In this document: positions 38,547 to 63,368 of the stretch, piece after piece
Layout: the number at the start of each line of letters is the position of its first letter
Position numbering within the stretch: position 1 is the first letter of the stretch
Assembly (NCBI GenBank): GCA_042572045.1
Contig: JBHPFI010000001.1
Location: forward strand, 47,818-111,817
DNA from: Candidatus Omnitrophota bacterium
GTDB taxonomy: Bacteria; Omnitrophota; Gorgyraeia; Gorgyraeales; Gorgyraeaceae
Length of the DNA: 64,000 nt
Direction: 5' to 3'
The notes under the pieces: generated by a model
Told to the model about the DNA's origin: nothing
What the model saw: only the letters and a program-made list of their open reading frames with translations
Databases searched by the model: none
Made by a program: the position numbers and the translations under genes

Positions 38547-41500
38547 ATGATAAACTTTAAAAAACTCTTCAGTATGAGGATTGTATCATTAGTCGTAGCT
38601 GTAACATTCTTTGTTACATCTACGTCTTATGGCATAGATATACCTGATAGATCCCACTTAAGGACCCCTCTTTTAACAAATTCAGACCAAGGGACCAGTA
38701 GGTTAAAGCAAGCCCTATTCTACCAGTTAAGACAGATGCTAGGCCAGGTAGTCAATGCAGACACTTCCAAAGACCTTGCCTTTTACGAAGGAGAAAAACA
38801 AGCCCTTTTGCTAGAAGATGGAAAGATCCTGGTAAATGAAGAGCTATATGATAAGTATAACTCTGAGATCCCGGGAGAAAGAACCGAAGCCCTTCAGGTA
38901 CTCATACATGAGACAGTAGAGGCACTTCTCCAGGTTGTAAAAAGAAACCATTCCTCCAGATATCAGACTATGAAGGAGCTGGCCTTAAGTAACCTCCCAG
39001 CACTCTATTTTCGCATTCCCCACCAAGCTGATAAGACCTACCGCGATGAAATCCTTGCAAATGACATCTGGGCAGTTGCATTTGAATACAGAATGATGGG
39101 CATAACCCCAGAACAGGTCCAAGACCCTGATCTCCAAAACTTCCTAAAAAAATCCTATGAGATTATTGATGCACGCAGAAGCCTATTTGGTGAGGAGTTC
39201 AACAGCCCTTACAGGGCTAAAGAGACTGTAGTAGAGGCCTTAAGAAGAGGGTTTGAGTTTAAGAGGGTAGCGAGAGCAGACGCGCAGGAAGAGATGAAGG
39301 GCGGGAAAGAGGTAGTTTTTTTGCAGGCCAGCGTGGCCGACGATTTAATCTATCCAGAAGGCAAGTCGGGATTAATGAACTCTGTGGAAGAGCTGAAAGG
39401 CAAGCCGATTAGGTTTGATATTATCAACGGAGAGATTTTGTTGCAAGATGAGCAGCCGCTATTTAGATTATTAGGGCTTGAGACTTCTCATTCTCAGCAG
39501 GATTTCTTGGAGTATGGGCTCTGCGCGCTTATCCGGGAGCGGCTCTTAGAGACAGATGTTTCTACATTAGGCGATTTGCGCAATCTTAGTTTTGTTTTTG
39601 GTGACGAAGATAGTGCTTCTGTCTCTGGATTTGATTTCCGTAGCCCATATGCTAAAAGTGGAAGAAACGGAATATTTTTTATAAACGTTAAGGCATTAGC
39701 TGCGCTAGAAAAGCCTCAGGACAGACAGACTGCTTTTATTTTAGGCGTCTCACATATGATATCGCATGAGGCCTTAAAAGGCGCGGATACAGTTGAACCA
39801 ATTTTGCTGGCCCAGGATATAAGATTAGCGACTACTCCCGGCAGAATCAGCATGGACCCTAGCGCTTTTATTGAAAACTTTAGAGCTACTGTAAGGCTTG
39901 ACTCCGGACCTTATGAGGGCATATTAAGATTTCTTGATACCGGCTATTTACGGCGAGAGAATATAGAAATATTAGCATCTAGCGGCATAATGAGAGATTT
40001 ATTTCAAGCCCTACCTGAATTGGATGCATTATACGCGGCGCGTTACAAAGGAAAAAGCTTTCTTTCAAAAGAGGAAAGAACAGCTGTGTTCCAATATGCC
40101 ACTATATTGGTCCATCAGGGAAGGATAAAGGAGGCCAGAGAAGTTATTGAACAACCGCTTGGTCGAACTGCTATACTCGGCAGTAGTTACGACAAAGAAT
40201 TATACAAAGCAGAACTCCAGTATTATTTGAATATGGGAGATATTGTTTCAGCGGTTACGCTTACAGAAAAGTTTTTTGCAGAATTTCCAGATGACTGGAG
40301 GGTAACGAACGGAAGTTTTGTAAAAGAGTTTGTTAGTAGAGGATATTTTCAGCAAGCTCGCGAACTTCTGAAAAAATACTATCAAGGCGATGAAATCCGT
40401 CCCGGCGGAGAGCTGCAACATATCGCGTTTTTGTATAAAGAGCTAGGGGAGTTTAATGATTTAATTAATATATGTAAACTTATACCCCTTCAGTTCAAGC
40501 CAGAAGATAGGCCTCGCGAACAATATGCTATGATAACATCTTGTATTCTTGCAGATATGGCGATACATCTTGTAGAAGAAGGCAGGATGAGCGAAGCAAT
40601 CGCCATTGCTTATGAGCCAGGACTTGAGCCGTATAGATTAGTAGTGTTAGCCAAGCTAGTTACTTTTCTTCTAACTAGTGATCGCGCTGATTATCAGGCT
40701 GAAGCGATGAATATCGTCGATAAACTTAAAGACGACCAAATTGTCAGCGCTTTAGTTAATAAACGAATAAGCATGTGGCCTGACCAGCCGGCATATGATT
40801 ATTACTATTATGCTTATATGGAAGGTGTTTACGCAGAAGCAATGTTTGCTATAGGTGAGTATGAATCATTAGCTCGTAAGGTTATCGTGACTACCAGTAT
40901 GGATTTTAATCTGGATTATATATTAGAACGTATTGGTTATGGCGAAGATTTATCGAGATTTATTCAGACCTGCGTAGTGGTTGCTGCAGAGGTCGAGCCC
41001 CCTCAAAACAATATCTATTATCATAATCGCGGTCAATTGCATTTTAACTGTAGAATCGCTAGGATTATGTTTGACTGGGTGTATGAACATGGCTATAGAA
41101 AAACCGCAGAATTCATAGATTCCTATTTAGATGATATTGAGCCAGATAGAACTCATCCAGAAAGACCTTCTTGGGTAATAGCAAAATTAACAGCCCAAGC
41201 TTGTTTACGTAGGGAAATGGACGATTCCCTTGTTGAAGAATGCCGCGGCTACGAAAACGGAGAAAAAATTCTAACTAGCCTTGCCGAACAACGTAAAAAA
41301 AGAAACGAAGCTTTTCCAGCAGACAAAGAAAAAAAAGGCATAAGGAGGTATTGGGAAGATGAATACACTCGAAAGTTTAAACAAACTACAGGAAGTCTTG
41401 ACATAAGAGCTGCTGGGTATCCATCATTGCAAACTTTATTGGAACGCCCTGTTGACCCTTTCAGTGCTAAGAGTAATAGATTTCCAAATATGACTAAAGA

Positions 41501-44500
41501 GTGCCATGGATATGTTACGCGTAGTTCATGGATACTATCGCGATCAGTTATAGGAGCAGTGCTAGAGCGCAGAGAAGGGTATGACAGATTGGCGGAAGAA
41601 ATCGGACCTTACAGGGTTCAGGCACTTTTAGATAGTGTTATACAAAGAAGAGGCGCTGATGCTTATTTTGTTTTCGAGGGGTTTATTGCACTTTTTCATG
41701 CCGGGATTACTAACGTTGACATGTTAGACAGGATAGACCTTGTTCTTACTCCTCTGGCCAGAAAGGCAGGTGTCGGGATAGCTAAGGCCTACGAGGATTT
41801 TGTAGATTTACTATCAGCAGGCATTCCTATTGAAGAAGGCTTGAAGCTTATAGGGACGGTAGTCGAAAGAGAATCTAGTGAGATTTCGGTCGCATATGAT
41901 AGCTTATATGTACTTATTAGAGAAGATATAGTAAATGTTTTAGTTCAGGCCGGCATTTCGCAGCAAGAAGTAGTAAGCTTTTTACAAAACATTGCTACTG
42001 GAGATAGATGGGATACTTCTTTTATTTTTTGGAGCTTAGTAGCGTTGGCCAGGTCAAATCTTATAAACGGAGATAGCTATCCTACCATTGGCCATCTATA
42101 TAAGGAGCTCTCATCATTCCAGAGGGGTGTTAGGAGATTTAAAAGTCTATTTAATAGAGCTAACGGGGCGGTCACAGAAGAGCATTTTAAACAGTTTGAA
42201 GAACGGGCCAAGGATATATATAATGCGCTTGAAATGCAGAATATAATTAGAAAAGGGCAAGTAGTAAAAGAAGAGATAGAAGAGTTTCTTGGTCTAGACG
42301 TAGACCAGGCTGATAGAAAGTATTTGGCGGGATTAAGCTTAAGGAATACTCAAGAGCTCTCGACAGTGCAGAATATTTTGAGAGAAATTTACGGCCGTGC
42401 CTTTGCCGAACAGCACAGGATAGATGAAGTGCGTTTCTGGCCAATGCACCTTAGAAACATAGCCTTTTTCCAGGTAGCTTGCGGAAGAATAGGTCTGGAT
42501 GTTGCGAATTTTGTCGTCAGTTCCTTAGGACCGAGAAGATTGGACAATTTTCTGACGCAAACAATGGAAATATATACTGACGAATCTTATGTGCGTGGAT
42601 TAATTTCGCTATTAAACGGTTCCCAGGACAGGCATCCCGGGCTTGCTTTGCATATAGTGGAATACGCCGCGGCCTATAGCCAGTTAGAGTTGGGAACAGA
42701 GTTTGGCAAGGTAGTCGCAGGAGTGGTGTCGGATAAATTTGGACTTAGACAGGCAAAAATAGACTTAGGAACCGAATTATTCAGGCTATTTTCCCAACAG
42801 CTTGGCTTGCAAGTGGATAACATATCGGAAGATATGATTAATGCCTGGGAGTTGAGCTATCTTTCTAAATTGTTTGTGGGACGCAAAATGATTCATGCCA
42901 AGGGAACGGCCTACAGGCCCCTTCAGGATTTATTCGATAGCATTATTACATCAACGCTCGAGGGCAGGTTTGAGCAATTTATTATGGACACTAATCCTGA
43001 GACAAACGCTTATCCGATGGGCGTTAGAGTGGCCGAGCACAATGAGCAATTAAGAGCGGCGTTGTCCGAAAAGGGGATAGACGTGGCTTTTTGGCTTAGG
43101 TACAGTGAGACGAGCTCCTTTGGTTTTAGTGCCGAAGAAGACGAAGGCGAGGTCATTGATATAATCGGTGAATTGGGTGCATTGGCCGATGCCCTTTCTT
43201 TTATATTGAATAAACTTCCGGGCGATGAAGCGAGGTATGGAGAAGCCATTCTAGGCAGCCTTAGAAAGATGGAGATTTTTCTTGATACGACGGATCCGGA
43301 GCGCCCCTTTTTCTGTAGGATCATGAAGGACGGCGAGCTGTCTACTGATCCGGAAGATGTCTTGTCCGTCTTGTTTGACGGACAGAGATTGCCGGGCTTG
43401 AGAAAAAATCTTGCGTATGTGCAGGGACGCACCGTAGAGCAGGAAGTCGCGACTGCGATATTTCATTTTGTAGAGGATATAGATAGGGTCGACGGAATTG
43501 TCGCAAAGACGGATTTAAAAGATCTTACAAGTGGCGCGGAGAGGTTTACGGTCAAGGTGTGGGGTCGAAACCCCGCAAGGGATATATTCCAGGGTAATTT
43601 TACCAGTTGTTGCGTTGCGATTGATAACAATCTTCATCCGGAGGCGATCCTGGAATACTTAATTGATCAAGGTATTCAGGTGGTAGAGGTGATTAATGAA
43701 GCCACAGGCGAAACGATCGCCCAGACATGGTGTTTTATCGCGATGGATGGTGATGGCGAGGCTGTCTTGGTTATGGACAACATAGAGGTGGTAGGTAAAT
43801 ACGCAGCAGCAGGAACTGATGAGAATAATATAATCAGGGATAATATACTAAGCTATCTGCAAAGATATACGAGGGCAATAGGCGCTAAAGGTCTTTATTT
43901 GGGAAACACCCCATATCAAGACGTGGATGTATCGACGTTTGAGAGAGTTCCGGTAAGCCTGACAAAGTTAGGAGGCAATCTATGGGCTTATGAAGGAGAG
44001 GGTCAGGGGTATCGTTATTATCTGGAGGCGCTTTACAGCGAAGACCGCAGCAGGAGAAAGACTGAGGCCCACAGGATGTCGTTACCCGAGGTGTCCGTTG
44101 ATGAGACTGCAACCGATGCAGGCTTTAGCATAGAAGTCATTACTCCTGATACAATCGATTGGAAATTGATAGGCGAGTTGGCAGCAGTAGAAGTCGATGC
44201 CTATGCTGGGCCTATGGTACTGGGCGTAGAATCCATTAGAAGCGTAGTGGAAAACCCTAAAGCCGTATGCCTTGTTATAAGAGATGACTCCAGCGGGAGA
44301 ATCGCGGGATATCGATTTGCCATACCTTCGCAGGAATATCCGCAGAGTCCGATTGTAGGGGCTGACATACTTTATGGATACGATATCGCAATCCATCCCA
44401 AATATCAAAGGAGAGGGCTTTTTAGCAGGCTGCACGCGGAATTTATCGAGGAGGCACGCGCAAGAGGTTATACAGCGATGTCTGCGCATGTCAGAATAGC

Positions 44501-47500
44501 GGGCAATGTCCCTGAGCCCCTGCGTTGGCCAAGGATATGGATAGAAAGGCTAGAGGGACGACCCGTTAAAGGCGGACAGATTGTCTTTCCTGATAACGGA
44601 AAGCGTTATTCCGACTCGATCCTTTTGGATTGCGCGATCCCGTGGCTCGATGGTGAATCGGCAATCCCATGCGTCCTGGATCTGGCTGAAACAGAGTCTC
44701 CAGACGTTGATTTGCAAGGTAGAGATGAGAGCGGAAAATTTGCAGAGCTCCCCATGAAAAGCCCGGGATATATGAGGGATTTTGTAGCGACCCATTATGG
44801 AGACAGCCCTTTTACCATAGCTCAATATATTAAAGATTGGGAGACGGCTAACCCCGGAAGAAGATTGCCGAGCAGCACAGCCTATAGTGACTTAACTAAA
44901 GCAAGGGCAAACGGATGGATTGAGAAATTAGAGGGACCTCATTATAGACTTGCCGAGATAGGACAGGTTCAGAATGTCGGCCATGTCGAAGCATGGGAAG
45001 AAGATGTAAGTGTCGCTAAAGAGCAAGTTGTAAAAGTCCTTGTTCTCGATGATGACTATCATATGCTCAATGCAACCAAGGAAAGACTTGCCGCCTCAGA
45101 GATTGTAAGTATAGAAACAGCAGCAGAAATGGATGAAGGACTCAAAATATTAGAGGCCAATCCAGATATTAACTTTTTAGTGCTTGATTTTAGACTCTTT
45201 GAGTATCCCACTGAAAATGGAGTTCAGTTTTGCAAGAAGGCGTTTAAGGCCCCTTATAATTTTGAAGGAAGAGTTGTGATTTATTCAGCCGATGATACCG
45301 CTATTATAAGTGAGCTTAAGCGCTATCCCGACCTGTGGGACAGGTATATACAAGGACAGATTTCTATTCAATTAAAACATGACACAAGGGCATTCGAAGA
45401 CATAAGGGCCAGGATTATATCATTCGCAAGGGGTGAAGAGGCGCTGCCTCAGGAAAGCGCTACGGATATCGTAGCATTAGAAGAAGAGCTTCCGCTTGCA
45501 GCATTAACGATAACACCAGATGATATCGGCATTACTCCTGCCATTGTAGATCGATTTAGGGATTGCCATGTAATCATAGCAGATGATAAGCCTTTTATAA
45601 GAAATGCTATCGAGGCAACGGTTAGCAGATTTTTTGATAACGTACATAAATTAGGTACGGTCGAAGATGCTGTAGAATTGGTGAAGGCATTGCGCAGACA
45701 AGGCGTGCCTGAGGAAAGGATAATAATCCTTTCTGATTATGAGTTCGGGACCGAACAGACAGGTATAAGACGGCTGGATGGTCGCGATTTTGTGAACATG
45801 TTGAGGTTAGCCCCGAACGCTGACTATCCCGAGGAGACCCTTGGCTTTATGGGATTCTTCTTCTTTGTTTCAGGAAGTATTATTTCTAAAGACCAGATAT
45901 CCGGCTTTAACAAGTCCGCAAAGGATATTGACTTTGAAGTCAAGGTAAAATATGGGATTGATTATATTGAGAAAAATGCCGATGAAGAGTTTCCGATTGC
46001 ACTGCTAAAAATGGTCTATGTCAGACTTCAAAAGCCGTATAATTTAAGCGCAGATATTACTGATGCCCTTCCACGTAAGCCTATGTCTAAGCCGGCTGAT
46101 ATCAGTTTCTTGAACGGAGGCGTTAATGATTTTGAAACAAGGCTTAAAATGGGCCTTAGGGTTTTAAAAGATTCACTAACAGAACTTGCGCCCAGAGTGG
46201 AAGACAGAGAGGCCTTAAGAAGGATAGAAGAGGTTCTTTCTAAAATGAGTGCATTTTTTGAGCTTGGAAATGTTGACAGGAGCCTTGCCTTTAATGTGCG
46301 TACCCATAATTACAAAGGGCATATTTTTTACGCAGCAGGTTATTTAACTCCCCAGATACGCGAAGAAGTAGAGTCCTTGAGTGCTTCTGATAGAGAAAAA
46401 TACGGACCATTCCTTGAGCAATTGGATAATCTAAGCTTAACGATGAATGTCGCCGCAAACTATATGCTTAGATTATTAAGATTATCCGCAGCAGTCGGGA
46501 ATATTAATATGCCTATTACTTTTGAGGAATTTATACATAATACCGTAGAGATTTTTCTTACCGATTATGGAAAGCGAGTAAGTATTGAAACGGATTTTGA
46601 TAGAGACAGCCTTGAAGGCCTGGAATTTCCCTATGGCCTCGCCTTTATTGTAGCATTCATATTGGATAATGCCCTTGAACAGTATCAGGTAAAGTTTGGC
46701 AAGGATTTTAAAGGCAAGATATTTTTTAAGGTCAATAAGGAAGAAAAGACACTTGAAATAGAAATAATTGACGAGGCGGGTGGCATACCAGAGAAGGTAT
46801 TGCCTAATATATTTCTGAGAAAGTTTACTACAAAGGTACATGGCGCCGGGTTTGGATTATTTTGGGCTAAGCAGCTGATGGGCATGTATGATGGTGAGAT
46901 TGCAGTGCGCAACGAAGGCGATGGCGCCTGTTTTACCTTGACTCTTCCGCTTGATTGGAAACGCATTGCAGAAGAAAAAGAATACGCCCCCGAAGAACTT
47001 ATGCAGCGAGTCCTTGATGTGCTCGCCGAACGCGGCAATCCTGATGCGGAGGAACTTGCAGAGAAGATCGCGAGAGAGATTTATACATACAGCACCAAAA
47101 TTGCTGAGGTTACTAAGACAAGAGAGACAATCTCACACGAATCTTATTTATATCAAGGTCACAAGCACATTAGATACAAAATAGAAGAGATGCTCAACAC
47201 TTATTTCCTGGCTATATGTACTGGCGACTACCAGGTTTTTAGAGATATTATTTTTGAAAAAGGCACGACGCAAAAGGACATAGAAGACCTTTTATTATCG
47301 CTACTTGCGCTTAAACAGGTTGAGGAGAAAGAGGACATAACATTCGCACATTTACCAGTAAGACAGGCGGTTGTGCTCTTATATGATTCTGAAGGCAGAG
47401 CACGGATCTTGCTTCGTTCAAAAGAGAATCTTGCGAGAGAAGAGGAGGGCATTACGCCAGAAAAAAGGAATAGGTATCAAAGAGTATTACGGCAGACTGG

Positions 47501-48674
47501 TTACGCTATACATAAACTAGGCGGAGATGTCGGACATATGTCCTCAGCATTCTACTTTATTCACACGGACGGCAAGATTAGTGAGGGGAAAAAAGACTAT
47601 CTTGAGAGATTATTCAGGCAAGATCTCCCGGACGAGGTCTATGGCATGATACATACATATACAAGCTCAGGAGAACAATTATCAGGGTTTGAGGATGATA
47701 TTCTATGGATAGAAAGAGTGGATGGTTGGCTAGGAGCAATCTCTGATCAGGCAAGGGCATTTATGAATGCGAAAGAGCGGTTAGATCAGGCATTAGAGGG
47801 CGTTGAATTAGAAGAGGGGAGCACGGCTGAAAGAGAAGTAAATAGAGTACGCAGAATTGCTGAGACGAGCCAGACTCTGTTAAAACTTTTACATGGTCAG
47901 CAATTTGAAGATAAAGAGGTTATGGATATTTCTGTGTATCCAGACGAGGATTCCAGAGTGCACGGAAAGGAACAGTTTCACTTTAACGTTTCACCTGGTA
48001 CTAGGTTGAGGTTAAGTTACTTTTTCTTAGATAATATTATGTTAAATCTTTTTCGCTGTAAACCTAAAGATGAAGATTTTTATGTTGATGTAAAGGAAGA
48101 AGGTGGCTACACCGTATTTAACGTTAGATATAAAGGACAAGTTGATCCAGAGACAATGTTTGAGCCTAAAGAATCGCGGTCCACCCCCTGGCAGCGTTAC
48201 GGCCCTCTCATACATGACCTAATTGATGCAGTAAATGGTGAAGTCACTGCTCAGAATGTAGGCGAAGATGTTGAGATAGCCATAAGGTTTCCTCTTCCAG
48301 ATATTGATAGCCAGGGTACGCTTCTAGATGCCCGCGCAGATCTGAATAAATTAAAACAAACCGTAGTATTATTCTCAGGAGACGAAGCGCAAGATAATCT
48401 TGGTGAGTTCAAGCTGGCATTAGGTGAGCTAGATGAGACCAATACAGCTGTAGTAATAGTAGGTTCAGAAGAACAGCAGAGATTTTTCGTAGAGCACAGA
48501 GGAGAACTAGGAAGATTTTATATTAGAACGCCGGAACAAATAGGTTTGGCCGGCGTTGATTTGAATCAAGTCATGACTACGATAATGGGCATAGATAATC
48601 TTAGATGTATCCCGCTTACAGATTCCCTCTTAAACGCCAACCCATCCTTGAAACAGGCCAGGGACCAGGTGTAA
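38547..48674 (+). CDS. giant secreted multidomain protein, paralog 2 (3375 aa)
   Basis: The N-terminal ~230 aa are ~75-85% identical to paralog 1. Internal domains: GNAT (IAIHPKYQRRGLFSRLHAEFIEEARARGY ~44100-44500), the conserved ~70-aa module (44704-44926), two receiver-like domains (KVLVLDDDYHMLN ~45030-45380; HVIIADDKPF ~45570-45900), a GHKL/HATPase_c domain (LDNALE...IDEAGGIP...GAGFGL ~46660-46960) and a second HATPase-like region (~47990-48300). The C-terminal ~110 aa are near-identical to paralog 1. Confidence 0.85.
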   Translation: MINFKKLFSMRIVSLVVAVTFFVTSTSYGIDIPDRSHLRTPLLTNSDQGTSRLKQALFYQLRQMLGQVVNADTSKDLAFYEGEKQALLLEDGKILVNEELYDKYNSEIPGERTEALQVLIHETVEALLQVVKRNHSSRYQTMKELALSNLPALYFRIPHQADKTYRDEILANDIWAVAFEYRMMGITPEQVQDPDLQNFLKKSYEIIDARRSLFGEEFNSPYRAKETVVEALRRGFEFKRVARADAQEEMKGGKEVVFLQASVADDLIYPEGKSGLMNSVEELKGKPIRFDIINGEILLQDEQPLFRLLGLETSHSQQDFLEYGLCALIRERLLETDVSTLGDLRNLSFVFGDEDSASVSGFDFRSPYAKSGRNGIFFINVKALAALEKPQDRQTAFILGVSHMISHEALKGADTVEPILLAQDIRLATTPGRISMDPSAFIENFRATVRLDSGPYEGILRFLDTGYLRRENIEILASSGIMRDLFQALPELDALYAARYKGKSFLSKEERTAVFQYATILVHQGRIKEAREVIEQPLGRTAILGSSYDKELYKAELQYYLNMGDIVSAVTLTEKFFAEFPDDWRVTNGSFVKEFVSRGYFQQARELLKKYYQGDEIRPGGELQHIAFLYKELGEFNDLINICKLIPLQFKPEDRPREQYAMITSCILADMAIHLVEEGRMSEAIAIAYEPGLEPYRLVVLAKLVTFLLTSDRADYQAEAMNIVDKLKDDQIVSALVNKRISMWPDQPAYDYYYYAYMEGVYAEAMFAIGEYESLARKVIVTTSMDFNLDYILERIGYGEDLSRFIQTCVVVAAEVEPPQNNIYYHNRGQLHFNCRIARIMFDWVYEHGYRKTAEFIDSYLDDIEPDRTHPERPSWVIAKLTAQACLRREMDDSLVEECRGYENGEKILTSLAEQRKKRNEAFPADKEKKGIRRYWEDEYTRKFKQTTGSLDIRAAGYPSLQTLLERPVDPFSAKSNRFPNMTKECHGYVTRSSWILSRSVIGAVLERREGYDRLAEEIGPYRVQALLDSVIQRRGADAYFVFEGFIALFHAGITNVDMLDRIDLVLTPLARKAGVGIAKAYEDFVDLLSAGIPIEEGLKLIGTVVERESSEISVAYDSLYVLIREDIVNVLVQAGISQQEVVSFLQNIATGDRWDTSFIFWSLVALARSNLINGDSYPTIGHLYKELSSFQRGVRRFKSLFNRANGAVTEEHFKQFEERAKDIYNALEMQNIIRKGQVVKEEIEEFLGLDVDQADRKYLAGLSLRNTQELSTVQNILREIYGRAFAEQHRIDEVRFWPMHLRNIAFFQVACGRIGLDVANFVVSSLGPRRLDNFLTQTMEIYTDESYVRGLISLLNGSQDRHPGLALHIVEYAAAYSQLELGTEFGKVVAGVVSDKFGLRQAKIDLGTELFRLFSQQLGLQVDNISEDMINAWELSYLSKLFVGRKMIHAKGTAYRPLQDLFDSIITSTLEGRFEQFIMDTNPETNAYPMGVRVAEHNEQLRAALSEKGIDVAFWLRYSETSSFGFSAEEDEGEVIDIIGELGALADALSFILNKLPGDEARYGEAILGSLRKMEIFLDTTDPERPFFCRIMKDGELSTDPEDVLSVLFDGQRLPGLRKNLAYVQGRTVEQEVATAIFHFVEDIDRVDGIVAKTDLKDLTSGAERFTVKVWGRNPARDIFQGNFTSCCVAIDNNLHPEAILEYLIDQGIQVVEVINEATGETIAQTWCFIAMDGDGEAVLVMDNIEVVGKYAAAGTDENNIIRDNILSYLQRYTRAIGAKGLYLGNTPYQDVDVSTFERVPVSLTKLGGNLWAYEGEGQGYRYYLEALYSEDRSRRKTEAHRMSLPEVSVDETATDAGFSIEVITPDTIDWKLIGELAAVEVDAYAGPMVLGVESIRSVVENPKAVCLVIRDDSSGRIAGYRFAIPSQEYPQSPIVGADILYGYDIAIHPKYQRRGLFSRLHAEFIEEARARGYTAMSAHVRIAGNVPEPLRWPRIWIERLEGRPVKGGQIVFPDNGKRYSDSILLDCAIPWLDGESAIPCVLDLAETESPDVDLQGRDESGKFAELPMKSPGYMRDFVATHYGDSPFTIAQYIKDWETANPGRRLPSSTAYSDLTKARANGWIEKLEGPHYRLAEIGQVQNVGHVEAWEEDVSVAKEQVVKVLVLDDDYHMLNATKERLAASEIVSIETAAEMDEGLKILEANPDINFLVLDFRLFEYPTENGVQFCKKAFKAPYNFEGRVVIYSADDTAIISELKRYPDLWDRYIQGQISIQLKHDTRAFEDIRARIISFARGEEALPQESATDIVALEEELPLAALTITPDDIGITPAIVDRFRDCHVIIADDKPFIRNAIEATVSRFFDNVHKLGTVEDAVELVKALRRQGVPEERIIILSDYEFGTEQTGIRRLDGRDFVNMLRLAPNADYPEETLGFMGFFFFVSGSIISKDQISGFNKSAKDIDFEVKVKYGIDYIEKNADEEFPIALLKMVYVRLQKPYNLSADITDALPRKPMSKPADISFLNGGVNDFETRLKMGLRVLKDSLTELAPRVEDREALRRIEEVLSKMSAFFELGNVDRSLAFNVRTHNYKGHIFYAAGYLTPQIREEVESLSASDREKYGPFLEQLDNLSLTMNVAANYMLRLLRLSAAVGNINMPITFEEFIHNTVEIFLTDYGKRVSIETDFDRDSLEGLEFPYGLAFIVAFILDNALEQYQVKFGKDFKGKIFFKVNKEEKTLEIEIIDEAGGIPEKVLPNIFLRKFTTKVHGAGFGLFWAKQLMGMYDGEIAVRNEGDGACFTLTLPLDWKRIAEEKEYAPEELMQRVLDVLAERGNPDAEELAEKIAREIYTYSTKIAEVTKTRETISHESYLYQGHKHIRYKIEEMLNTYFLAICTGDYQVFRDIIFEKGTTQKDIEDLLLSLLALKQVEEKEDITFAHLPVRQAVVLLYDSEGRARILLRSKENLAREEEGITPEKRNRYQRVLRQTGYAIHKLGGDVGHMSSAFYFIHTDGKISEGKKDYLERLFRQDLPDEVYGMIHTYTSSGEQLSGFEDDILWIERVDGWLGAISDQARAFMNAKERLDQALEGVELEEGSTAEREVNRVRRIAETSQTLLKLLHGQQFEDKEVMDISVYPDEDSRVHGKEQFHFNVSPGTRLRLSYFFLDNIMLNLFRCKPKDEDFYVDVKEEGGYTVFNVRYKGQVDPETMFEPKESRSTPWQRYGPLIHDLIDAVNGEVTAQNVGEDVEIAIRFPLPDIDSQGTLLDARADLNKLKQTVVLFSGDEAQDNLGEFKLALGELDETNTAVVIVGSEEQQRFFVEHRGELGRFYIRTPEQIGLAGVDLNQVMTTIMGIDNLRCIPLTDSLLNANPSLKQARDQV
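44704..44926 (+). repeat. conserved ~70-aa module, copy in giant gene 2
   Basis: DVDLQGRDESGKFAELPMKSPGYMRDFVATHYGDSPFTIAQYIKDWETANPGRRLPSSTAYSDLTKARANGWIE. About 90% nt identity to 19915-20136. Confidence 0.8.
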
Positions 48675-58878: not shown

Positions 58879-58905
58879 GAATGCGATAGGAGGAAAGGAC
58901 GCAAG

Positions 58906-59322: not shown

Positions 59323-59343
59323 AAAAGCGCGCCAGAACATTAT

Positions 59344-59372
59344 TTGAAAGATAGCGTTTTCTATGGTATAAT
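59344..59372 (+). promoter_or_regulatory. sigma70-like promoter of giant gene 3 (TTGAAA-17-TATAAT)
   Basis: Perfect -10 element. The conserved leader follows up to the ATG at 59464. Confidence 0.55.
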
Positions 59373-59463
59373 ATAACATAGATAGCAGGAATATCTAGGG
59401 CACATTGTATATTACATAGCGATTAACTAAGCCGTTAAGAAGGGCTATTTTTTTACCTACATT

Positions 59464-62400
59464 ATGATAAACTTTAAAAAACTTTTCACTTTAAAGATTA
59501 TATCAGTAATAGTAAGCATAGCATTCTTATGTAATGCCAGTCTATATGCCCATCCTGAATCAAAAAATACTTTAAGAATATCTGTTGGAGAGCAGCGTAC
59601 ATTTGATCGCATTGACGACACAATGCATCAAATGGTGATAGATGAGCCTCTTGCTGAGGCTGCTAAGGAAGCAGGCACCCCCCGTCTAAATCCTTTATAT
59701 TTATCTAATCTTAGTCCAGAGATAAGCGAAATATTGACTTTACTTAGACAAACTGGTTTAGGTAATTTCGCTGAAGCACTTAAGAGGCTTTGTGATGAAG
59801 AAAGAGTCCAACGTTTTAGTCCTGGAAGAGGCGAATGGATTGGGATATATGGTCATGCATCTGATGAGCGGATAACTGTTAAAGCTGGGCTTGAAGCAGC
59901 TAGAGAAGGGGCAGTCTTAGGTCATGAATTATTGGATTGGTTTAATGTGCAGGTTGATAGCGTGGAAGAACTATCAACTTGGATTGAAGTAAATGAAAAT
60001 ACCCCAAGGCATCTTGGTCCAGCATTTGAAGTAGCTTTAAATAGAACTCTTTCCGGAGACACTGATGTATTAACAAGATTTGTTGAAGACTTCAGAAGAT
60101 ATTTAGAACCCATCAATGTAGCTACAAGACTTTCTGAGCAACCTAACTTATTAAAAGAGACAGCAGAAACAGAAGAAAGGCATTATACTTCAGTACCGTA
60201 TTCATCGCTGAGTATGGAGCAACGCTTTAAAGAAGCCATGGGCAGCAGATACGAAAATATTAGAAATTTTCGTATAGACATGAGAACGGGTAGATATGTA
60301 TTTGAAAAAGCATTAAACAAAAAACCTGATGTCTGGATAACTTATTATTACGAGAACGCGGTCCCTGTGGATCTGGACGGAAGTATTGATGACCTTCTGG
60401 CATTATATGAAGAAAGCGTTCAGGAGGACGAAAGCAATGTTGATATAAGATATTTGATATTCAAACGAATCGCGAAATTCAGGGATAGGGCGTCTCATCT
60501 GGAAGGGGTATTAAAAAATATAATGGATACAGAAACATCAGATAGGGTTCTGGATGAAATACGGGTCGCAATAAATATTGTATCAGGTAGGGCTATTGAC
60601 GGGGGTAAGCGTTTAAGAGTAGCGTATGCCAGCTACGAGATTTCCCCGTTTGTCGGAAAAGGTGGCATAAAAGACGTAATACAACAACTTCCTCGCACTT
60701 TACATAATAAGCGCGGGCATGAAGCTAGCGTTTTTATCCCTTACTGGGAGGAGATCTTAGATAAGTCAGTAGAGGGAAATGATGCAGAAATCAGGATAGA
60801 AGAGGTTGGGGTTTTTGAGTTGCACGGCGAAAGAGTAGAGATATACACCCTTCTTATGCGCAATGAACTTACGGGCGACTTTGAGCCAATAGACGGAGTG
60901 CCTATATATTTATTAAAATGTGCCAGATATTTTTCAACTGAAGATGGAGATATATACAGGCAGGCGTTGGATAGAAAAATAGCTTCGCATCGTATAAGCC
61001 CTAAAAACGCAGAGACTGCCATATTTTTCTCAAAGGCCGTACTGGAGGCAATGAAGCAAATGGGATTAAGGCCTGATATTATCAATACAGCTGACTGGCA
61101 AACAGCCCATATAGCTACATTATTAAGAAAATCAAAAAATCCCGAGTTATACAGTTTTTTCAAAAGTACAAAGACCTTGCATACTATCCATAATATAGGC
61201 CCAAAAGGTCTTATTGCGGCGTCTCCTTATGCGCCTGAAGGCAGTGATGAGAGGGATATGTGGGATTTTATGGGGATCAGCGATGATGCGTACCAGCCGC
61301 CTGATCAGAATGGAGTTGAGTTTTACGGTAGCGCATCTTTGCAAAAAGGAGGGATTGTTTTTGCGGATATGGTAAGTACAGTAGGGATAAGCTATGCGTC
61401 TGAGCTCAAGACAACAGAATTCGGCTCAGGATTTGAGGGTATCAATAGGGTTGCAGGGGTAATAGGGGTACCTAATGGCATAGCATTAAGGGAATGGAAT
61501 CCAGCTAGCAGCTTCTCTATAGAACGTAATTTCAAGAATGATCCTTCGGAACAAGACAGGCAATTGAGTGTTTTGGATGCAAAGGAAGGCAAAAGAGAGA
61601 ACAAAAAAGCAATGACAGCGATGGTAAACGACAACAGAGAAAGGAATAGGGCTACAACCCTAAGAGAATTTACATGCGATGAAGATACTCAGGTTTTTTG
61701 TTTTTTAGGTAGATTTGACGCTCAAAAGGGGTTAGACGTATTATTATCTGTATTAGAAAATGAGCATGAAATAAAAGGTCTCCTTGAGAGCGGGAAGATA
61801 AAGATGATTTTCGCAGGCACAGGGAATCCTGAATATATGCAAAGGGTCAAGAAACTCGAGGAGCTATATCCTGAAAGCGTTGCGTATCTGGGCTGGGTCA
61901 ATGAGGGCACTGCTAAGCAGTTATTTGCTGGAGCTGATGTCAATATCATGCCTTCCATATTCGAACCAAAGGGCATAGTCCAGATGCAGGCTGCTCGGTT
62001 CGGAGCCATAAATCTTGTAAATAAGGTAGGCGGTTTAAGGGACGACATAATAGATTTTTCGGAAGAAGAGGGCGGGAATGGCTATGTCGTAGATTTTGCC
62101 AATTGTAGCAAAGAAGAAGCAGCTAGGTTGCTGCGCAATCAAATGCTTCGGGTAATGTGGGATTTTGGCAATAAGGCAATCTGGGATGCCCAGGTCAGAG
62201 AGGTTTTGGCTGATTCTGCAAAATTCGGATGGGACCTTTCCTGCTTGAAATATGAACTACTCTTTAACGCATCAACAGGAAACTATTATGATCTATTTAC
62301 AAGGCATTTGGTTGATCATATTGACGAGATAACTGGCGCATCTTTTGAAAGGATAATGACAGAAATAGGCAAAGCTTATCTGGCTAGAACAAGGGTATTT

Positions 62401-63312
62401 GATCCTTTAACAGGGACAGTGATGTTGACAGGAGCTGACGCAAAAGAATTTTTGCTTAGGTCAAAACAGTTCTATCACGAAACAACTGTATGTAATCTTG
62501 ATCCGAATCCTATGACAGTAGAGATTGACGAAACCTCGGTAACCCTTGATGATATAGGTGTCGTAGCGATAAAGCCTGGGTCCAGTTTATTGTTTAGAGA
62601 AATAAAAGGCGAGGTAGTGGTAATAATAACACAAAATCCAGAAGCAGTCAGTAGCTGGTATGCTCCTTACGACGAATCTCACGATTTATTTAAAGATAAA
62701 GGCTATAATGAGTCAGGGGTAATTTCCCCGCCTGAATGGTGGCAAAAAGGAGTCACTGTGATAGAGCATGAGTCCAGGGTTAACCAATGGACCTCCGAGC
62801 AGGAGCAGGAATGGCTTATTGATTCCATGACCTTTGGGTCCAATCTCCCAGGGATTTCTATGGTGAGATATTCTACAGATACGGGTGAGGCATGGGTCGA
62901 TTTTAGGGAAATAAGGCCAAGTGAGGACTATCATAGTCATCCAAATAAACCAGAAGGACAAGCAAACTTTATAGAAGTTTATTATATAGTTGAAGGTATG
63001 GCAACATTGCTATATGAAGAAGAAGGGGTGGTAAAAGTAACTGAGTTAGGCCCAGGAGGTATGTGGATAGCAAAAGACGAGGTCCCGCATACAATATTGG
63101 CATTTAAAGGCCCATATAAACATCTGGCGATACAAGTACCAAGTGTATTCCAATATGGGTTTAGATTCAAGGAGATTGTGGAACCGCCCCAGCCAGGTAT
63201 GGAGGAAATGTTAATGCAAACCCAGGAAGCAGACACAGGTATTTTAGAACTGCCCCCGCCAAGCATAGAGGAAATATTTATGCAAAACCAGGAAGTAAGC
63301 AGAGGGGTATAG
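59464..63312 (+). CDS. giant-family paralog 3 (1282 aa) with embedded GT5 glycogen-synthase-like and cupin domains
   Basis: N-terminus MINFKKLFTLKIISVIVSIAFLC shared with the family. ~60617-62055 looks like GlgA (RVAYASYEISPFVGKGGIKDV...GHEASVFIPYW; ...FLGRFDAQKGLD...MPSIFEPKGIVQMQAARFGAINLVNKVGGLRDDI). C-terminal cupin (HSHPNKPEGQANFIEVYYIVEG...PH ~62930-63140). Confidence 0.8.
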   Translation: MINFKKLFTLKIISVIVSIAFLCNASLYAHPESKNTLRISVGEQRTFDRIDDTMHQMVIDEPLAEAAKEAGTPRLNPLYLSNLSPEISEILTLLRQTGLGNFAEALKRLCDEERVQRFSPGRGEWIGIYGHASDERITVKAGLEAAREGAVLGHELLDWFNVQVDSVEELSTWIEVNENTPRHLGPAFEVALNRTLSGDTDVLTRFVEDFRRYLEPINVATRLSEQPNLLKETAETEERHYTSVPYSSLSMEQRFKEAMGSRYENIRNFRIDMRTGRYVFEKALNKKPDVWITYYYENAVPVDLDGSIDDLLALYEESVQEDESNVDIRYLIFKRIAKFRDRASHLEGVLKNIMDTETSDRVLDEIRVAINIVSGRAIDGGKRLRVAYASYEISPFVGKGGIKDVIQQLPRTLHNKRGHEASVFIPYWEEILDKSVEGNDAEIRIEEVGVFELHGERVEIYTLLMRNELTGDFEPIDGVPIYLLKCARYFSTEDGDIYRQALDRKIASHRISPKNAETAIFFSKAVLEAMKQMGLRPDIINTADWQTAHIATLLRKSKNPELYSFFKSTKTLHTIHNIGPKGLIAASPYAPEGSDERDMWDFMGISDDAYQPPDQNGVEFYGSASLQKGGIVFADMVSTVGISYASELKTTEFGSGFEGINRVAGVIGVPNGIALREWNPASSFSIERNFKNDPSEQDRQLSVLDAKEGKRENKKAMTAMVNDNRERNRATTLREFTCDEDTQVFCFLGRFDAQKGLDVLLSVLENEHEIKGLLESGKIKMIFAGTGNPEYMQRVKKLEELYPESVAYLGWVNEGTAKQLFAGADVNIMPSIFEPKGIVQMQAARFGAINLVNKVGGLRDDIIDFSEEEGGNGYVVDFANCSKEEAARLLRNQMLRVMWDFGNKAIWDAQVREVLADSAKFGWDLSCLKYELLFNASTGNYYDLFTRHLVDHIDEITGASFERIMTEIGKAYLARTRVFDPLTGTVMLTGADAKEFLLRSKQFYHETTVCNLDPNPMTVEIDETSVTLDDIGVVAIKPGSSLLFREIKGEVVVIITQNPEAVSSWYAPYDESHDLFKDKGYNESGVISPPEWWQKGVTVIEHESRVNQWTSEQEQEWLIDSMTFGSNLPGISMVRYSTDTGEAWVDFREIRPSEDYHSHPNKPEGQANFIEVYYIVEGMATLLYEEEGVVKVTELGPGGMWIAKDEVPHTILAFKGPYKHLAIQVPSVFQYGFRFKEIVEPPQPGMEEMLMQTQEADTGILELPPPSIEEIFMQNQEVSRGV

Positions 63313-63368
63313 AGATTCTCATAATATAGCCTTGTGAATAAGCGAGATGTTATTTTTTTGTCAAGATT

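What the first reader, a model, noticed from the sequence alone, without database searches (positions are those of the whole stretch)
59464..63312. Glycogen-synthase-like GT5 domain and cupin fused behind the giant-family signal peptide
Residues encoded at ~60617-62055 align by eye with bacterial GlgA. The N-terminal Gly-rich motif is E.SPFVGKGG (GlgA: E.APFAKTGGL). The C-terminal half has the signature MPS.FEP.G..Q..A.RYG..P.V...GGL.D. The domain is flanked by ~380 aa of unique N-terminal sequence and a C-terminal HxH...E...H cupin. A secreted or exposed glucan synthase is unusual. It may build an extracellular polysaccharide, or act on partner-cell glycans.
Basis: partly seen in the sequence, partly recalled or inferred. 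Interest (0 to 1): 0.55.

Follow-up and report, generated by a model that had tools for sequence, protein, structure and literature searches.

The report
Signal-peptide-bearing glycogen-synthase-like enzyme with cupin
An uncultured Omnitrophota bacterium encodes a 1282-residue protein that puts a divergent but apparently catalytically intact glycogen-synthase-type domain and a metal-binding cupin behind the same export leader and 5' control region as its neighbouring giant proteins, so an enzyme that normally works in the cytoplasm is probably sent outside the cell.

Summary
ORF 59464-63312 (+) encodes 1282 aa.

- **GT5 core:** aa 385-935 match the whole GlgA profile (TIGR02095 positions 2-475 of 477, E 5e-80; Pfam PF08323 and PF00534).
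- **Leader:** aa 1-29 form a classical Sec-type signal peptide. It is shared with both giant ORFs, together with about 95 nt of 5'-UTR.
- **Cupin:** no HMM detects it in the target itself, but transitive homology supports it. H1157, H1159, E1171 and H1209 are invariant in 42 homologs, and 24 of 42 hit Pfam Cupin_2.

- The GT5 domain ends at nt 62268, not 62055.
- The N-terminal 380 aa are not unique. They comprise the leader, an insert homologous to another protein (P0018), and a 140-aa domain that always precedes this GT5 subfamily.
- The canonical Lys of K-X-G-G-L is lost (V-G-K-G-G-I). All other catalytic and NDP-sugar residues are invariant.

The protein scores below NCBI's GlgA cutoffs, and no glg genes lie in the window. 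It belongs to a narrow Omnitrophota-only family with swappable C-terminal modules. GT5 domains in Omnitrophota long proteins are already reported in two preprints.

Most likely it is an exported, active glucosyltransferase of the host-interaction proteome. Where it obtains NDP-glucose is unresolved.

The parts
59344..59372 (+). Near-consensus sigma-70-type promoter (TTGAAA-17 nt-TATAAT, TG-extended)
   Evidence: Best promoter-like site in 58500-64000, 11 of 12 matches; sequence read. It is a consensus match only, and the total number of sites in the region is not above the shuffled expectation.
59369..59463 (+). 5'-UTR cassette shared with the two giant genes
   Evidence: Positions -95..-1 are 78% identical to giant 2 and 66% to giant 1. 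The giants are 69% identical to each other over the same stretch. Identity falls to 27% after codon 29. No Rfam match and no conserved fold.
59464..59550 (+). Sec/SPase-I-type signal peptide, aa 1-29 (MINFKKLFTLK / IISVIVSIAFLC / NASLYA, then HPE)
   Evidence: n-region charge +3, 12-residue h-region, A at -1 and L at -3. The same architecture occurs in 20 of 20 related leaders. BLASTP to the giants is confined to aa 1-29. It is the only hydrophobic segment in the protein.
59572..59589 (+). Post-cleavage 'LRxP/S' box (LRISVG, aa 37-42)
   Evidence: An LR.[PSA] motif lies 5-12 residues (18 in one case) after the predicted cleavage site in 19 of 20 leader-bearing proteins (P0007 has VRVP). These include the giants, the downstream ORF and the stand-alone cupin-module proteins P0014 and P0016.
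59731..60183 (+). Helical insert module, aa ~90-240, absent from the other family members
   Evidence: 39% identity over 160 aa to the N-terminus of P0018, an unrelated 603-aa protein (E 9e-18 database-wide; pairwise E 6e-31). The AF2 model is helical with pLDDT ~70-86. No Pfam or PDB match.
60205..60615 (+). Family-specific N-domain, aa 248-384 (RFKEAMG...IRNF...TGRYVFQK...YYYEN...), always directly upstream of the GT5 core
   Evidence: A local HMM finds it immediately before the GT5 domain in 13 of 13 proteins, including inside the 2117-aa P0011. AF2 pLDDT is 82-93, with one helix, four strands and four helices. No Foldseek PDB hit with E<1 and no Pfam hit.
60616..62268 (+). GT5 (GT-B) glycogen/starch-synthase-like catalytic core, aa 385-935
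   Evidence: Residues invariant in the 12-member family: E392, G400, G401, D544, H576, N671, R750, K755, E834. These correspond to E. coli E9, G17, G18, D137, H161, N246, R300, K305, E377. Deviations: G398 at the K15 position and K836 at the C379 position.
62392..62661 (+). Beta-rich first half of the C-terminal module, aa ~977-1066
   Evidence: Conserved in P0002, P0003, P0013-P0016 and many representatives. AF2 predicts strands but pLDDT is only 55-66. One weak profile hit to Phd antitoxin 3hry (E 0.002) is not interpreted.
62836..63183 (+). Divergent cupin domain, aa ~1125-1240, with a 3-His/1-Glu site (H1157, H1159, E1171, H1209)
   Evidence: These four residues plus E1154, Y1173, G1178 and F1229 are invariant in 42 homologs. 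24 of 42 homologs hit Pfam Cupin_2 (best E 1e-6) and others hit Cupin_1, Cupin_6, ARD, 3-HAO and AraC_binding. Profile hits against PDB are mostly cupins: 7zvm E 0.003, 7zvy, 3-HAO and quercetinase. JGI names the homolog P0028 'mannose-6-phosphate isomerase-like protein (cupin superfamily)'. The fold itself was not confirmed, because the AF2 model has pLDDT 41.
63184..63312 (+). C-terminal tail with a duplicated EEMLMQTQE / EEIFMQNQE motif, plus the stop codon
   Evidence: Read from the translation. Homologs end in a related ...NEILxQxxxA[AC]SI tail. Function unknown.

Best explanation
This is a Sec-exported, multi-domain enzyme from a narrow, Omnitrophota-specific family. Its fixed core is an N-domain followed by a divergent GT5 glucosyltransferase. 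The C-terminal accessory module is interchangeable, and here it is a metal-binding cupin.

**Shown**
- The GT5 core aligns end to end with GlgA and keeps every catalytic and NDP-sugar-contacting residue tested, except the Lys of K-X-G-G-L.
- The gene shares a ~180-nt 5' cassette (5'-UTR plus signal-peptide codons) with the two neighbouring giant genes.
- All relatives carry the same leader type: a basic n-region, a short h-region, a small residue at -1, and then an LRxP box.

**Inferred**
- The protein is co-expressed with the giants, crosses the inner membrane through Sec, and is cleaved after A29.
- It joins the giants in the surface or host-interaction proteome of this probably host-dependent nanobacterium.
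- Its GT5 domain transfers glucose from an NDP-glucose, with altered donor handling because of the changed phosphate loop, onto an alpha-glucan or another glycan acceptor.
- Because nucleotide-sugars are not expected in the medium, the site of action is most plausibly the interior or interface of an attached host or prey cell, as with the secreted GlgA of Chlamydia.
- The cupin binds a metal and probably a sugar or sugar-phosphate ligand.
For: **Domain identity**
- Searches identify the GT5 core.
- Nine catalytic or substrate positions are all invariant although only 23.6% of GT5 columns are invariant across members down to 47% identity. Assuming independence, the rough chance expectation is 0.236^9, about 2e-6. 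This argues for retained catalysis.

**Export**
- The leader has n/h/c architecture with positive charge only on the N side (20 of 20) and a short h-region. Most have 10-15 uncharged residues. The crude scan gives 18-19 for four of them because it runs on into the polar c-region.
- The residue at -1 is small (A, G or S), and no other hydrophobic segment exists in the protein.
- The C-terminal module also occurs as a stand-alone protein with its own leader and LRxP box (P0014, P0016).

**Link to the giants**
- The shared signal peptide and 5'-UTR are documented.
- A fourth leader-bearing ORF lies immediately downstream.
- Giant 1 also carries 'cytoplasmic-type' enzyme domains, HAD and a SAM methyltransferase, behind the same leader.

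**Secretion context in relatives**
- In two of the four distinct genomic loci recovered (L003, which is the same contig as L001, and L005) the gene lies 1-6 kb downstream of two T2SS-E/MshE ATPases and pseudopilins, and next to another leader-bearing ORF.

**Literature**
- Omnitrophota giants are enriched in GT5 domains and most of their domains are predicted extracellular.
- 94% of long Omnitrophota proteins carry a signal peptide or TM helices.
- Host-dependent or predatory lifestyles are proposed for the phylum.
- Chlamydia secretes GlgA and uses host UDP-glucose.
Against: - No trained signal-peptide or topology predictor could be run, so export rests on classical rules.
- No NDP-glucose source outside the cytoplasm is known, and no delivery apparatus into a host is demonstrated.
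- K-X-G-G-L is described as strictly conserved in glycogen and starch synthases, with the Lys contacting ADP-glucose (PMC2576272). Its loss here could mean reduced or different activity.
- The target scores below all curated GlgA cutoffs.
- The 2026 preprint argues that sugar-metabolism modules in TM-only long Omnitrophota proteins may sit on the cytoplasmic face.
- In this window the gene is not next to T2SS genes.
- The rest of the genome could not be inspected for glgC, glgB or a canonical glgA.
Confidence: 0.42

Rival explanations
1. It is the cell's own glycogen synthase, membrane-tethered or cytoplasmic. On this reading the N-terminal hydrophobic segment is an uncleaved anchor, or is not used for export. 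The catalytic domain faces the producer's cytoplasm, where ADP- or UDP-glucose is available. The N-domain and cupin are regulatory or substrate-channelling add-ons.
For: - A Leloir GT-B enzyme needs cytoplasmic nucleotide-sugar, which is established biochemistry.
- The full catalytic set is conserved.
- NCBI annotates the identical protein as 'glycogen synthase'.
- The 2026 preprint reads sugar-metabolism modules of TM-only long proteins as cytoplasm-facing.
- Other cargo behind the same leader (HAD hydrolase, SAM methyltransferase) also needs cytoplasmic cofactors.
Against: - The positive-inside rule places the N-terminus in the cytoplasm and the body of the protein outside. The n-region charge is +2 to +5 in 20 of 20 leaders, and net charge after the segment is about zero.
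- In most leaders the h-region of 10-15 residues is too short for a stable TM helix and is followed by a canonical small -3/-1 site.
- There is no glg operon context within 64 kb.
- The protein scores below the GlgA cutoffs and lacks K-X-G-G-L.
Confidence: 0.25
2. It is an exported but non-catalytic glycan-binding module. The GT5 fold is used as an alpha-glucan or host-glycan binding domain (an adhesin or pseudo-enzyme) in the surface coat, and the cupin acts as a second carbohydrate-binding unit.
For: - The K-X-G-G-L lysine is lost, and the residue before GG varies (K/R/M/A/Q).
- The FEPCG cysteine is replaced (K836).
- No nucleotide-sugar is expected extracellularly.
- Giant Omnitrophota proteins are proposed to act in attachment and cell-wall interaction.
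Against: - Residues needed only for chemistry or donor phosphate binding remain invariant across about 50% sequence divergence: E834 (E. coli E377), R750, K755, D544 and H576. This is not expected for a binding-only module.
Confidence: 0.15
3. It directly builds an extracellular or periplasmic alpha-glucan coat outside the producer's cytoplasm. The donor would be an exported or unconventional glucosyl donor.
For: - The protein has an export leader and an intact catalytic site.
- The altered donor loop could reflect a different donor.
- An Alginate_exp-type outer-membrane porin and other exported proteins are encoded 4-10 kb upstream.
Against: - No known GT5 or GT-B enzyme uses a non-nucleotide donor.
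- Known surface alpha-glucans made by GlgA are synthesised intracellularly and then exported (PMC11046441).
- No polysaccharide-export operon surrounds the gene.
Confidence: 0.1
4. The fusion is an assembly or gene-calling artefact that joins unrelated genes.
For: - The insert at aa 90-240 is unique to this genome among family members.
Against: - The same N-domain-GT5-cupin order occurs in P0002 (79% identity over the aligned region) and in P0003, from independent assemblies.
- The reading frame is uninterrupted.
- The insert has a real homolog elsewhere.
- The start codon is fixed by the 5' cassette shared with the giants.
Confidence: 0.02

Closest known systems
Bacterial glycogen synthase GlgA and plant starch synthases (CAZy GT5; PDB 1rzu, 2qzs, 6gne)
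   Same: - The GT-B two-lobe core aligns over the whole GlgA profile.
- The following positions are conserved (E. coli numbering): E9, G17, G18, D137, H161, N246, R300, K305 and E377, plus the FEPxG...GGL C-terminal signature.
   Different: - It scores below the curated GlgA cutoffs (269.5 versus 328.45 bits).
- K-X-G-G-L is replaced by V-G-K-G-G-I, and FEPCG by FEPKG.
- About 79 extra loop residues are present.
- The protein carries a Sec-type signal peptide, a 350-aa N-terminal extension and a 350-aa C-terminal extension.
- No glgC, glgB or glgP lies nearby.
GT5 'glycogen-synthase-like' domains in Omnitrophota giant or long proteins (Archaeovorins, West-Roberts et al. 2023 preprint; 'Module 2', 2026 preprint)
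   Same: - Same phylum and same Pfam domains (PF08323 and PF00534).
- The domains sit in proteins with signal peptides or TM segments.
- The leader and 5'-UTR are literally shared with the giants of this genome.
   Different: - The protein is only 1282 aa, has a single N-terminal hydrophobic segment and has no TM array.
- It belongs to a discrete 12-member family with a fixed N-domain+GT5 unit.
- Giant 1 was scanned with Pfam and shows no GT5 domain. BLASTP shows that neither giant resembles this protein beyond aa 29.
- Those preprints do not describe this family, the K-X-G-G-L change or the cupin fusion.
Secreted GlgA of Chlamydia trachomatis
   Same: - It is a GT5 glycogen synthase that leaves the bacterium and makes glycogen from host nucleotide-sugar (UDP-glucose) in a host-derived compartment (PMC3722199, PMC4829429, PMC11046441).
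- It is the only well-documented precedent for a glycogen synthase that works outside its producer.
   Different: - The Chlamydia enzyme is a normal-length GlgA exported by type III, or plasmid-dependent, secretion without a Sec signal peptide.
- Here the signal is a cleavable Sec-type leader. No T3SS is in evidence, and a host is only presumed.
Small metal-binding cupins (Pfam Cupin_2 clan; PDB 7zvm 'mannose-6-phosphate isomerase', 7zvy)
   Same: - The two-motif pattern with an H-x-H...E...H ligand set is present, with E-x6-G spacing in motif 1 and a [PS]xGxxxxxxxxxPH-type motif 2.
- Both motifs align to 7zvm.
   Different: - The HxH-to-E spacing is 11 residues instead of 3-4.
- The target itself gives no Pfam cupin hit.
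- The cupin is always preceded by a family-specific beta-rich region in this module.
- Substrate is unknown and the fold is not confirmed.
Fungal alpha-1,3-glucan synthase Ags1 (a GT5 domain fused to other domains; from my own knowledge, not tested here)
   Same: - It is a multi-domain protein in which a GT5 synthase is coupled to extracytoplasmic modules for a cell-surface glucan.
   Different: - Ags1 keeps its GT5 domain on the cytoplasmic side of a multi-span membrane region.
- The protein here has no TM region apart from the leader.

Membership tests
CAZy GT5 / Pfam Glyco_transf_5 + Glycos_transf_1 (GT-B glucan synthases) | Significant match to the PF08323 N-lobe and the PF00534 C-lobe above gathering thresholds | tested here: met
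   PF08323 scores 149.6 bits (cutoff 22.7) over aa 385-660. PF00534 scores 57.9 bits (cutoff 26.4) over aa 736-890.
CAZy GT5 / Pfam Glyco_transf_5 + Glycos_transf_1 (GT-B glucan synthases) | Catalytic and NDP-glucose-contacting residues (A. tumefaciens/E. coli G18, D137/138, H161/163, N246, R299/300, K305, E377) | tested here: met
   G401, D544, H576, N671, R750, K755 and E834 are present in the target and invariant in all 12 family members. The residue list is taken from PMC2576272 and from my own knowledge of the E. coli GS structures.
Canonical glycogen synthase GlgA (NCBIfam TIGR02095 / NF001898 equivalogs) | Score at or above the curated whole-protein cutoff | tested here: not met
   TIGR02095 scores 269.5 bits against a cutoff of 328.45. 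NF001898 scores 239.1 against 603. All other GlgA equivalogs also score below their cutoffs.
Canonical glycogen synthase GlgA (NCBIfam TIGR02095 / NF001898 equivalogs) | N-terminal K-X-G-G-L motif with the ADP-glucose-binding Lys15, described as strictly conserved in SSs and GSs (PMC2576272) | tested here: not met
   The target has V-G398-K399-G-G-I. Across the family the K15 position is G, A or E, and the next residue is K, R, M, A or Q.
Canonical glycogen synthase GlgA (NCBIfam TIGR02095 / NF001898 equivalogs) | Leaderless, ~480-aa single-domain cytoplasmic protein, usually encoded with glgC/glgB/glgP | tested here: not met
   The protein is 1282 aa with an N-terminal signal-peptide-like leader and two extensions. 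No glg genes were found among the 19 neighbouring ORFs scanned. The rest of the genome was not available.
Canonical glycogen synthase GlgA (NCBIfam TIGR02095 / NF001898 equivalogs) | ADP-/UDP-glucose:alpha-1,4-glucan glucosyltransferase activity | not testable with these tools
   This requires an enzyme assay.
Cupin superfamily | Two conserved motifs supplying a His/His/Glu/His metal site | tested here: met
   H1157, H1159, E1171 and H1209 are invariant in 42 homologs, with E-x6-G spacing. The HxH-to-E spacing is atypical at 11 residues.
Cupin superfamily | Significant profile match to cupin models | tested here: inconclusive
   The target alone gives no Pfam hit at E<=10. Among homologs, 24 of 42 hit Cupin_2 (best E 1e-6), and there are hits to Cupin_1, Cupin_6, ARD and 3-HAO. 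The family profile against PDB gives 7zvm at E 0.003, and most of the other hits are cupins. Membership is therefore supported transitively rather than directly.
Cupin superfamily | Double-stranded beta-helix (jelly-roll barrel) fold | tested here: inconclusive
   The AF2 model of aa 936-1282 has mean pLDDT 41 and is unusable.
Sec / signal peptidase I signal peptide | Tripartite n/h/c structure with a basic n-region, a 7-15-residue h-region and small residues at -3/-1 | tested here: met
   The target has n-region charge +3, the h-region IISVIVSIAFLC (12 aa) and the c-region NASLYA followed by H. The same design occurs in 20 of 20 related leaders. This is a heuristic rule-based check only.
Sec / signal peptidase I signal peptide | Call by a trained predictor (SignalP, DeepTMHMM) or experimental cleavage and export | not testable with these tools
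   No such predictor is available here.
Chlamydia-type secreted GlgA | Secretion into a host compartment and use of host UDP-glucose | not testable with these tools
   This is a functional analogy only. The export signal is of a different type.

The most novel reading that the evidence does not exclude
The MI[NK]F[KR]K...KIIS...Y[AG] leader plus the downstream LRxP box would be a lineage-specific sorting signal. It would route a whole set of 'cytoplasmic-type' enzymes out of the Omnitrophota cell and into or onto a host cell. That set includes the GT5 synthase, cupins, and the HAD and methyltransferase domains carried in giants.

On this reading, this protein is a delivered effector. It polymerises the host's NDP-glucose pool into glucan and so hijacks host carbon. 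This would be a free-living-nanobacterium counterpart of the Chlamydia GlgA strategy, with the changed K-X-G-G loop adapting it to the host's nucleotide-sugar.
Probability: 0.18. Interest if true: 0.8.

Novelty: new variant of a known kind. Interest (0 to 1): 0.48.

Why it matters
Glycogen and starch synthases are textbook cytoplasmic or plastidial enzymes. A family that keeps the catalytic machinery but always carries a cleavable-looking export leader raises two linked questions: where does a Leloir glycosyltransferase obtain its donor outside the cell, and what are Omnitrophota doing to their presumed hosts?

This 1282-aa protein has one signal peptide and no TM array. It is therefore a far more tractable test case than the 10,000-100,000-aa giants that carry similar GT5 domains with ambiguous topology. 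It can be expressed, assayed and localised. Because its leader and 5'-UTR are shared with the giants, the answer would carry over to them.

If the protein is ordinary, meaning a membrane-tethered housekeeping synthase, that result would still be useful. It would warn that signal-peptide-like N-termini in this phylum do not imply export.

Tried and rejected
1. **AF2 model of the C-terminal 347 aa** (7-sequence alignment): mean pLDDT 41, unusable, so no fold search was run on it.
3. **A shared 'GH...HExx[DE]' post-leader module.** By eye I thought the giants, the downstream ORF and the target's insert shared such a module. BLASTP shows only insert-P0018 homology (E 6e-31). The downstream ORF matches weakly (E ~0.08) and the giants not at all beyond aa 29. 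The idea is rejected as unproven.
4. **A structured RNA in the conserved 5'-UTR:** RNAalifold gives -1.66 kcal/mol with no compensatory pairs, and there is no Rfam hit.
5. **Co-occurrence of GT5 with the cupin module in other carriers:** a family GT5 HMM finds no GT5 in the ~95 other carriers recovered, giants included. The cupin is therefore a promiscuous module and not a dedicated GT5 partner.
6. **Alternative C-terminal modules** (by eye, P-loop-like in P0005 and P0008, HD-like in P0010-P0012): Pfam gives only a weak HD hit in P0012 (E 0.007). They are described only as unrelated extensions.
7. **Exact look-up of the target's contig:** not on record, so the downstream gene and the rest of the genome could not be read.
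8. **The Chem Rev alpha-glucan review** did not contain the residue-level GlgA information I looked for. PMC2576272 did.

Full report
**1. What is there**

ORF 59464..63312 on the + strand encodes 1282 aa. The identical protein is in NCBI as 'glycogen synthase [Candidatus Omnitrophota bacterium]', on a 176-kb contig. Nearly all genes in the window lie on the + strand, and G+C is about 41%.

**2. The GT5 core is real and complete**

- Pfam finds Glyco_transf_5 at aa 385-660 (E 1.5e-43) and Glycos_transf_1 at aa 736-890 (E 1.2e-15).
- NCBIfam TIGR02095 (glgA) aligns aa 385-935 to profile positions 2-475 of 477 (E 5e-80, 269.5 bits). This is below the curated cutoff of 328.45, and every GlgA equivalog model is also below its cutoff.
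- The best solved relatives are A. tumefaciens GS 1rzu, Arabidopsis SSIV 6gne and E. coli GS 2qzs/3d1j, at E 1e-29 to 1e-31.
- The similarity therefore spans the whole enzyme and is not confined to motifs.

**3. Catalytic residues**

I used the HMMER alignments to E. coli and A. tumefaciens GS and a 12-member family alignment.

- Nine positions are present and invariant: E392, G400, G401, D544, H576, N671, R750, K755 and E834. They correspond to E. coli E9, G17, G18, D137, H161, N246, R300, K305 and E377.
- Only 23.6% of GT5 columns are invariant across members down to 47% identity, so the conservation of these nine is informative.
- The exception is the K-X-G-G-L motif. PMC2576272 calls it strictly conserved in all starch and glycogen synthases, with Lys15 contacting ADP-glucose. 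Here it reads V-G398-K399-G-G-I.
- Across the family the K15 position is G, A or E. The following residue is K, R, M, A or Q.
- The Cys of FEPCG is Lys (K836).

**4. The leader**

- aa 1-29 (MINFKKLFTLKIISVIVSIAFLCNASLYA) match the N-termini of giant ORFs 18025..28536 (3503 aa) and 38547..48674 (3375 aa). Nothing else in those proteins matches.
- A fourth ORF starting at 63369 has the same leader and runs off the window.
- Other exported-looking ORFs in the window have ordinary MKK-type leaders.
- I compared 20 related leaders: the four ORFs here, the family members, the stand-alone C-module proteins P0014 and P0016, and neighbouring ORFs in related genomes. All have a +2 to +5 n-region, a short uncharged core of 10-15 residues in most (the crude scan gives 9-19), and A, G or S at -1.
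- In 19 of 20 an LRx[PSA] box lies 5-12 residues (18 in one case) after the predicted cleavage site.
- No other hydrophobic segment exists in the target.
- By classical rules this is a cleavable Sec signal peptide. No trained predictor was available.

**5. The shared 5' cassette**

At the DNA level, the 95 nt upstream of the ATG are 78% identical to giant 2 and 66% to giant 1. The giants are 69% identical to each other over this stretch. The signal-peptide codons are about 70% identical, and identity falls to 27% immediately afterwards. A near-consensus promoter (TTGAAA-17 nt-TATAAT) precedes the cassette. I found no conserved RNA fold and no Rfam family. The cassette suggests common regulation and a common export route.

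**6. The N-terminal 384 aa are not 'unique'**

- aa 90-240 are homologous to the N-terminus of an unrelated 603-aa protein, P0018. This insert is absent from the other family members.
- aa 248-384 form a domain found directly before the GT5 core in 13 of 13 proteins, including inside the 2117-aa P0011.
- The AF2 model of this domain is confident (pLDDT 82-93): one helix, a four-stranded sheet and four helices. It has no PDB match by Foldseek and no Pfam match.

**7. The C-terminal module and the cupin**

- Pfam finds nothing in aa 936-1282, and the AF2 model failed (pLDDT 41).
- A profile of the seven close homologs hit one PDB chain, the 113-aa cupin 7zvm. The E-value is 0.056, and both cupin motifs align.
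- An exhaustive profile search found 100 representative clusters with this module. They include proteins of 3383-7631 aa and many 450-600-aa proteins.
- In a 42-sequence alignment, H1157, H1159, E1171 and H1209 are invariant, together with E1154, Y1173, G1178 and F1229.
- 24 of the 42 members hit Pfam Cupin_2 (best E 1e-6). Others hit Cupin_1, Cupin_6, ARD, 3-HAO and AraC_binding.
- The 42-sequence profile against PDB gives 7zvm at E 0.003, and most other hits are cupins.
- Named carriers are Omnitrophota, and JGI calls one of them 'mannose-6-phosphate isomerase-like (cupin superfamily)'.
- I conclude that aa ~1125-1240 form a divergent metal-binding cupin. It is preceded by a family-specific beta-rich region at aa ~977-1066.
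- The module also exists alone behind its own leader and LRxP box (P0014, P0016).
- None of the ~95 other carriers recovered contains GT5. The module is promiscuous and is not a dedicated partner of the synthase.

**8. The family and its context**

- Only 12 clusters among 5.8 billion proteins match the full protein.
- Only 4 of about 185,000 species-representative genomes carry a relative.
- Every named source is Omnitrophota.
- The N-domain+GT5 unit is constant and the C-terminus varies. It is the cupin module in the target, P0002 and P0003. It is an unrelated extension elsewhere, one of them weakly HD-like.
- In two related genomes the gene follows two T2SS-E/MshE ATPases, pseudopilins and an HMGL-like gene, and sits beside another leader-bearing ORF.
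- In this window the HMGL-like gene is at 927-1877, 57 kb away from the target.
- The target's neighbours are a PD-(D/E)XK nuclease, a UvrD helicase and a small exported protein. An M28 peptidase and an Alginate_exp porin lie further upstream.
- No glg pathway genes were found among the ORFs scanned in the window.

**9. Mechanism**

*Shown:* a complete GT5 core with conserved chemistry, a Sec-type leader shared with the giants, a cupin metal site, and a modular family.

*Inferred:* the protein is co-expressed with the giants, exported and cleaved, and acts as a glucosyltransferase outside the producer's cytoplasm. Nucleotide-sugars are cytoplasmic, so the most coherent site of action is an attached host or prey cell. 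Three observations fit this:
- the proposed host-dependent or predatory lifestyle of Omnitrophota;
- the prevalence of GT5 domains in their largely extracellular giants;
- the Chlamydia precedent of a secreted GlgA that uses host UDP-glucose.

I give this reading 0.42.

The main rival is a membrane-tethered or cytoplasmic housekeeping synthase (0.25). It is favoured by enzymology but contradicted by the leader's charge distribution, short h-region and cleavage-site pattern. A non-catalytic glycan binder (0.15) is disfavoured by invariance of residues needed only for chemistry. Direct extracellular polymer synthesis (0.10) lacks a donor. An assembly artefact (0.02) is excluded by three independent assemblies that share the architecture.

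**10. Novelty and verdict**

The protein is a member of GT5, but by the tests above it is not a canonical GlgA. GT5 domains in signal-peptide- or TM-bearing Omnitrophota proteins are already reported in two preprints.

What appears to be new here:
- a compact family with a single signal peptide and a fixed N-domain+GT5 unit;
- the lost K-X-G-G-L lysine;
- the swappable C-terminal modules, including a new divergent cupin family;
- the 5'-UTR plus leader cassette shared with the giants;
- the LRxP box.

I rate it a new variant of a known kind, with interest of about 0.48.

Noticed in passing
window 63369-64000 (+), runs off the end of the window: A fourth ORF carries the same leader (MIKFRKDYNLKIISLIVSIVFFCSSTLYSYPNSKDTLRPPLS...). 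Its signal-peptide codons and the next 33 nt are 67-74% identical to those of the GT5 gene. It contains a 'GHWALRDGVIYVDKG...IWHELDEL' stretch that only weakly resembles the target's insert (BLASTP E ~0.08).
   Followed up: partly
window 17930-18111, 38452-38633 and 59369-59550: A shared ~180-nt 5' cassette (95-nt 5'-UTR plus 29 signal-peptide codons) links the two giant genes and the GT5 gene. Just before the ATG there is a conserved ...AAGCCGTTAAGAAGGGCTATTTTTTT.CCTACATT stretch, with no obvious Shine-Dalgarno sequence. No conserved RNA structure or Rfam family was found.
   Followed up: partly
window aa 37-42 of ORF 59464 (nt 59572-59589), plus the giants (nt ~18136-18147 and 38658-38669) and the related proteins P0002-P0017: A conserved LRx[PSA] box lies 5-12 residues (18 in one case) after the predicted signal-peptide cleavage site in 19 of the 20 proteins with this leader type. 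It may be a lineage-specific sorting or processing motif. I know of no described equivalent.
   Followed up: partly
window 53254-53336 (-): A c-di-GMP-I-GGC riboswitch (Rfam RF03167, 60.3 bits against a gathering score of 59, E 1e-11) lies directly upstream of the minus-strand ORF 52288-53175. That ORF encodes a 295-aa exported-looking protein with no Pfam match.
   Followed up: no
window 18025-28536 (+): Giant ORF 1 (3503 aa) carries a HAD-hydrolase domain (aa 968-1180) and a Methyltransf_28 SAM-methyltransferase-like domain (aa 2667-2794) behind the same export leader. These are also enzymes that normally depend on cytoplasmic cofactors. The two giants share only their termini and one internal repeat (BLASTP).
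   Followed up: partly
window 63184-63309 (aa 1241-1282), and the C-termini of P0002, P0003, P0013 and P0015: The target's tail contains a duplicated motif (PGMEEMLMQTQEA / PSIEEIFMQNQEV). Homologs end in a conserved ...LNEILxQxxxA[AC]SI-COOH. This may be a C-terminal recognition or sorting motif.
   Followed up: no
loci L001/L003 (JAUSEX010000058.1) and L005 (DNHS01000025.1), compared with window 927-1877: In two related genomes the GT5 gene directly follows an HMGL-like gene that lies downstream of T2SS-E/MshE ATPases and pseudopilins. In this window the orthologous HMGL-like gene (927-1877) is 57 kb upstream, and both giants lie in between. This suggests a large insertion or rearrangement.
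   Followed up: no
P0018 (603 aa, JGI metagenome), residues ~225-250: The protein that shares the target's insert module also contains an 'HNHPNTGGTPSPND' stretch. By eye this resembles the JAB/MPN (RadC-like) metalloprotease motif. Pfam gives no hit.
   Followed up: no
window 62392-62661 (aa ~977-1066), alignment A4 profile positions 111-163: The beta-rich region in front of the cupin gives a weak profile hit to the Phd antitoxin (PDB 3hry, E 0.002). The match lies over a '...G.p.VVi.t....Y...' stretch. It may be spurious.
   Followed up: no
window 54090-55466 (+) and 48787-49758 (+): An Alginate_exp-family outer-membrane porin (E 5e-30) and an exported M28 peptidase lie in a run of exported proteins of unknown function between giant 2 and the GT5 gene.
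   Followed up: no
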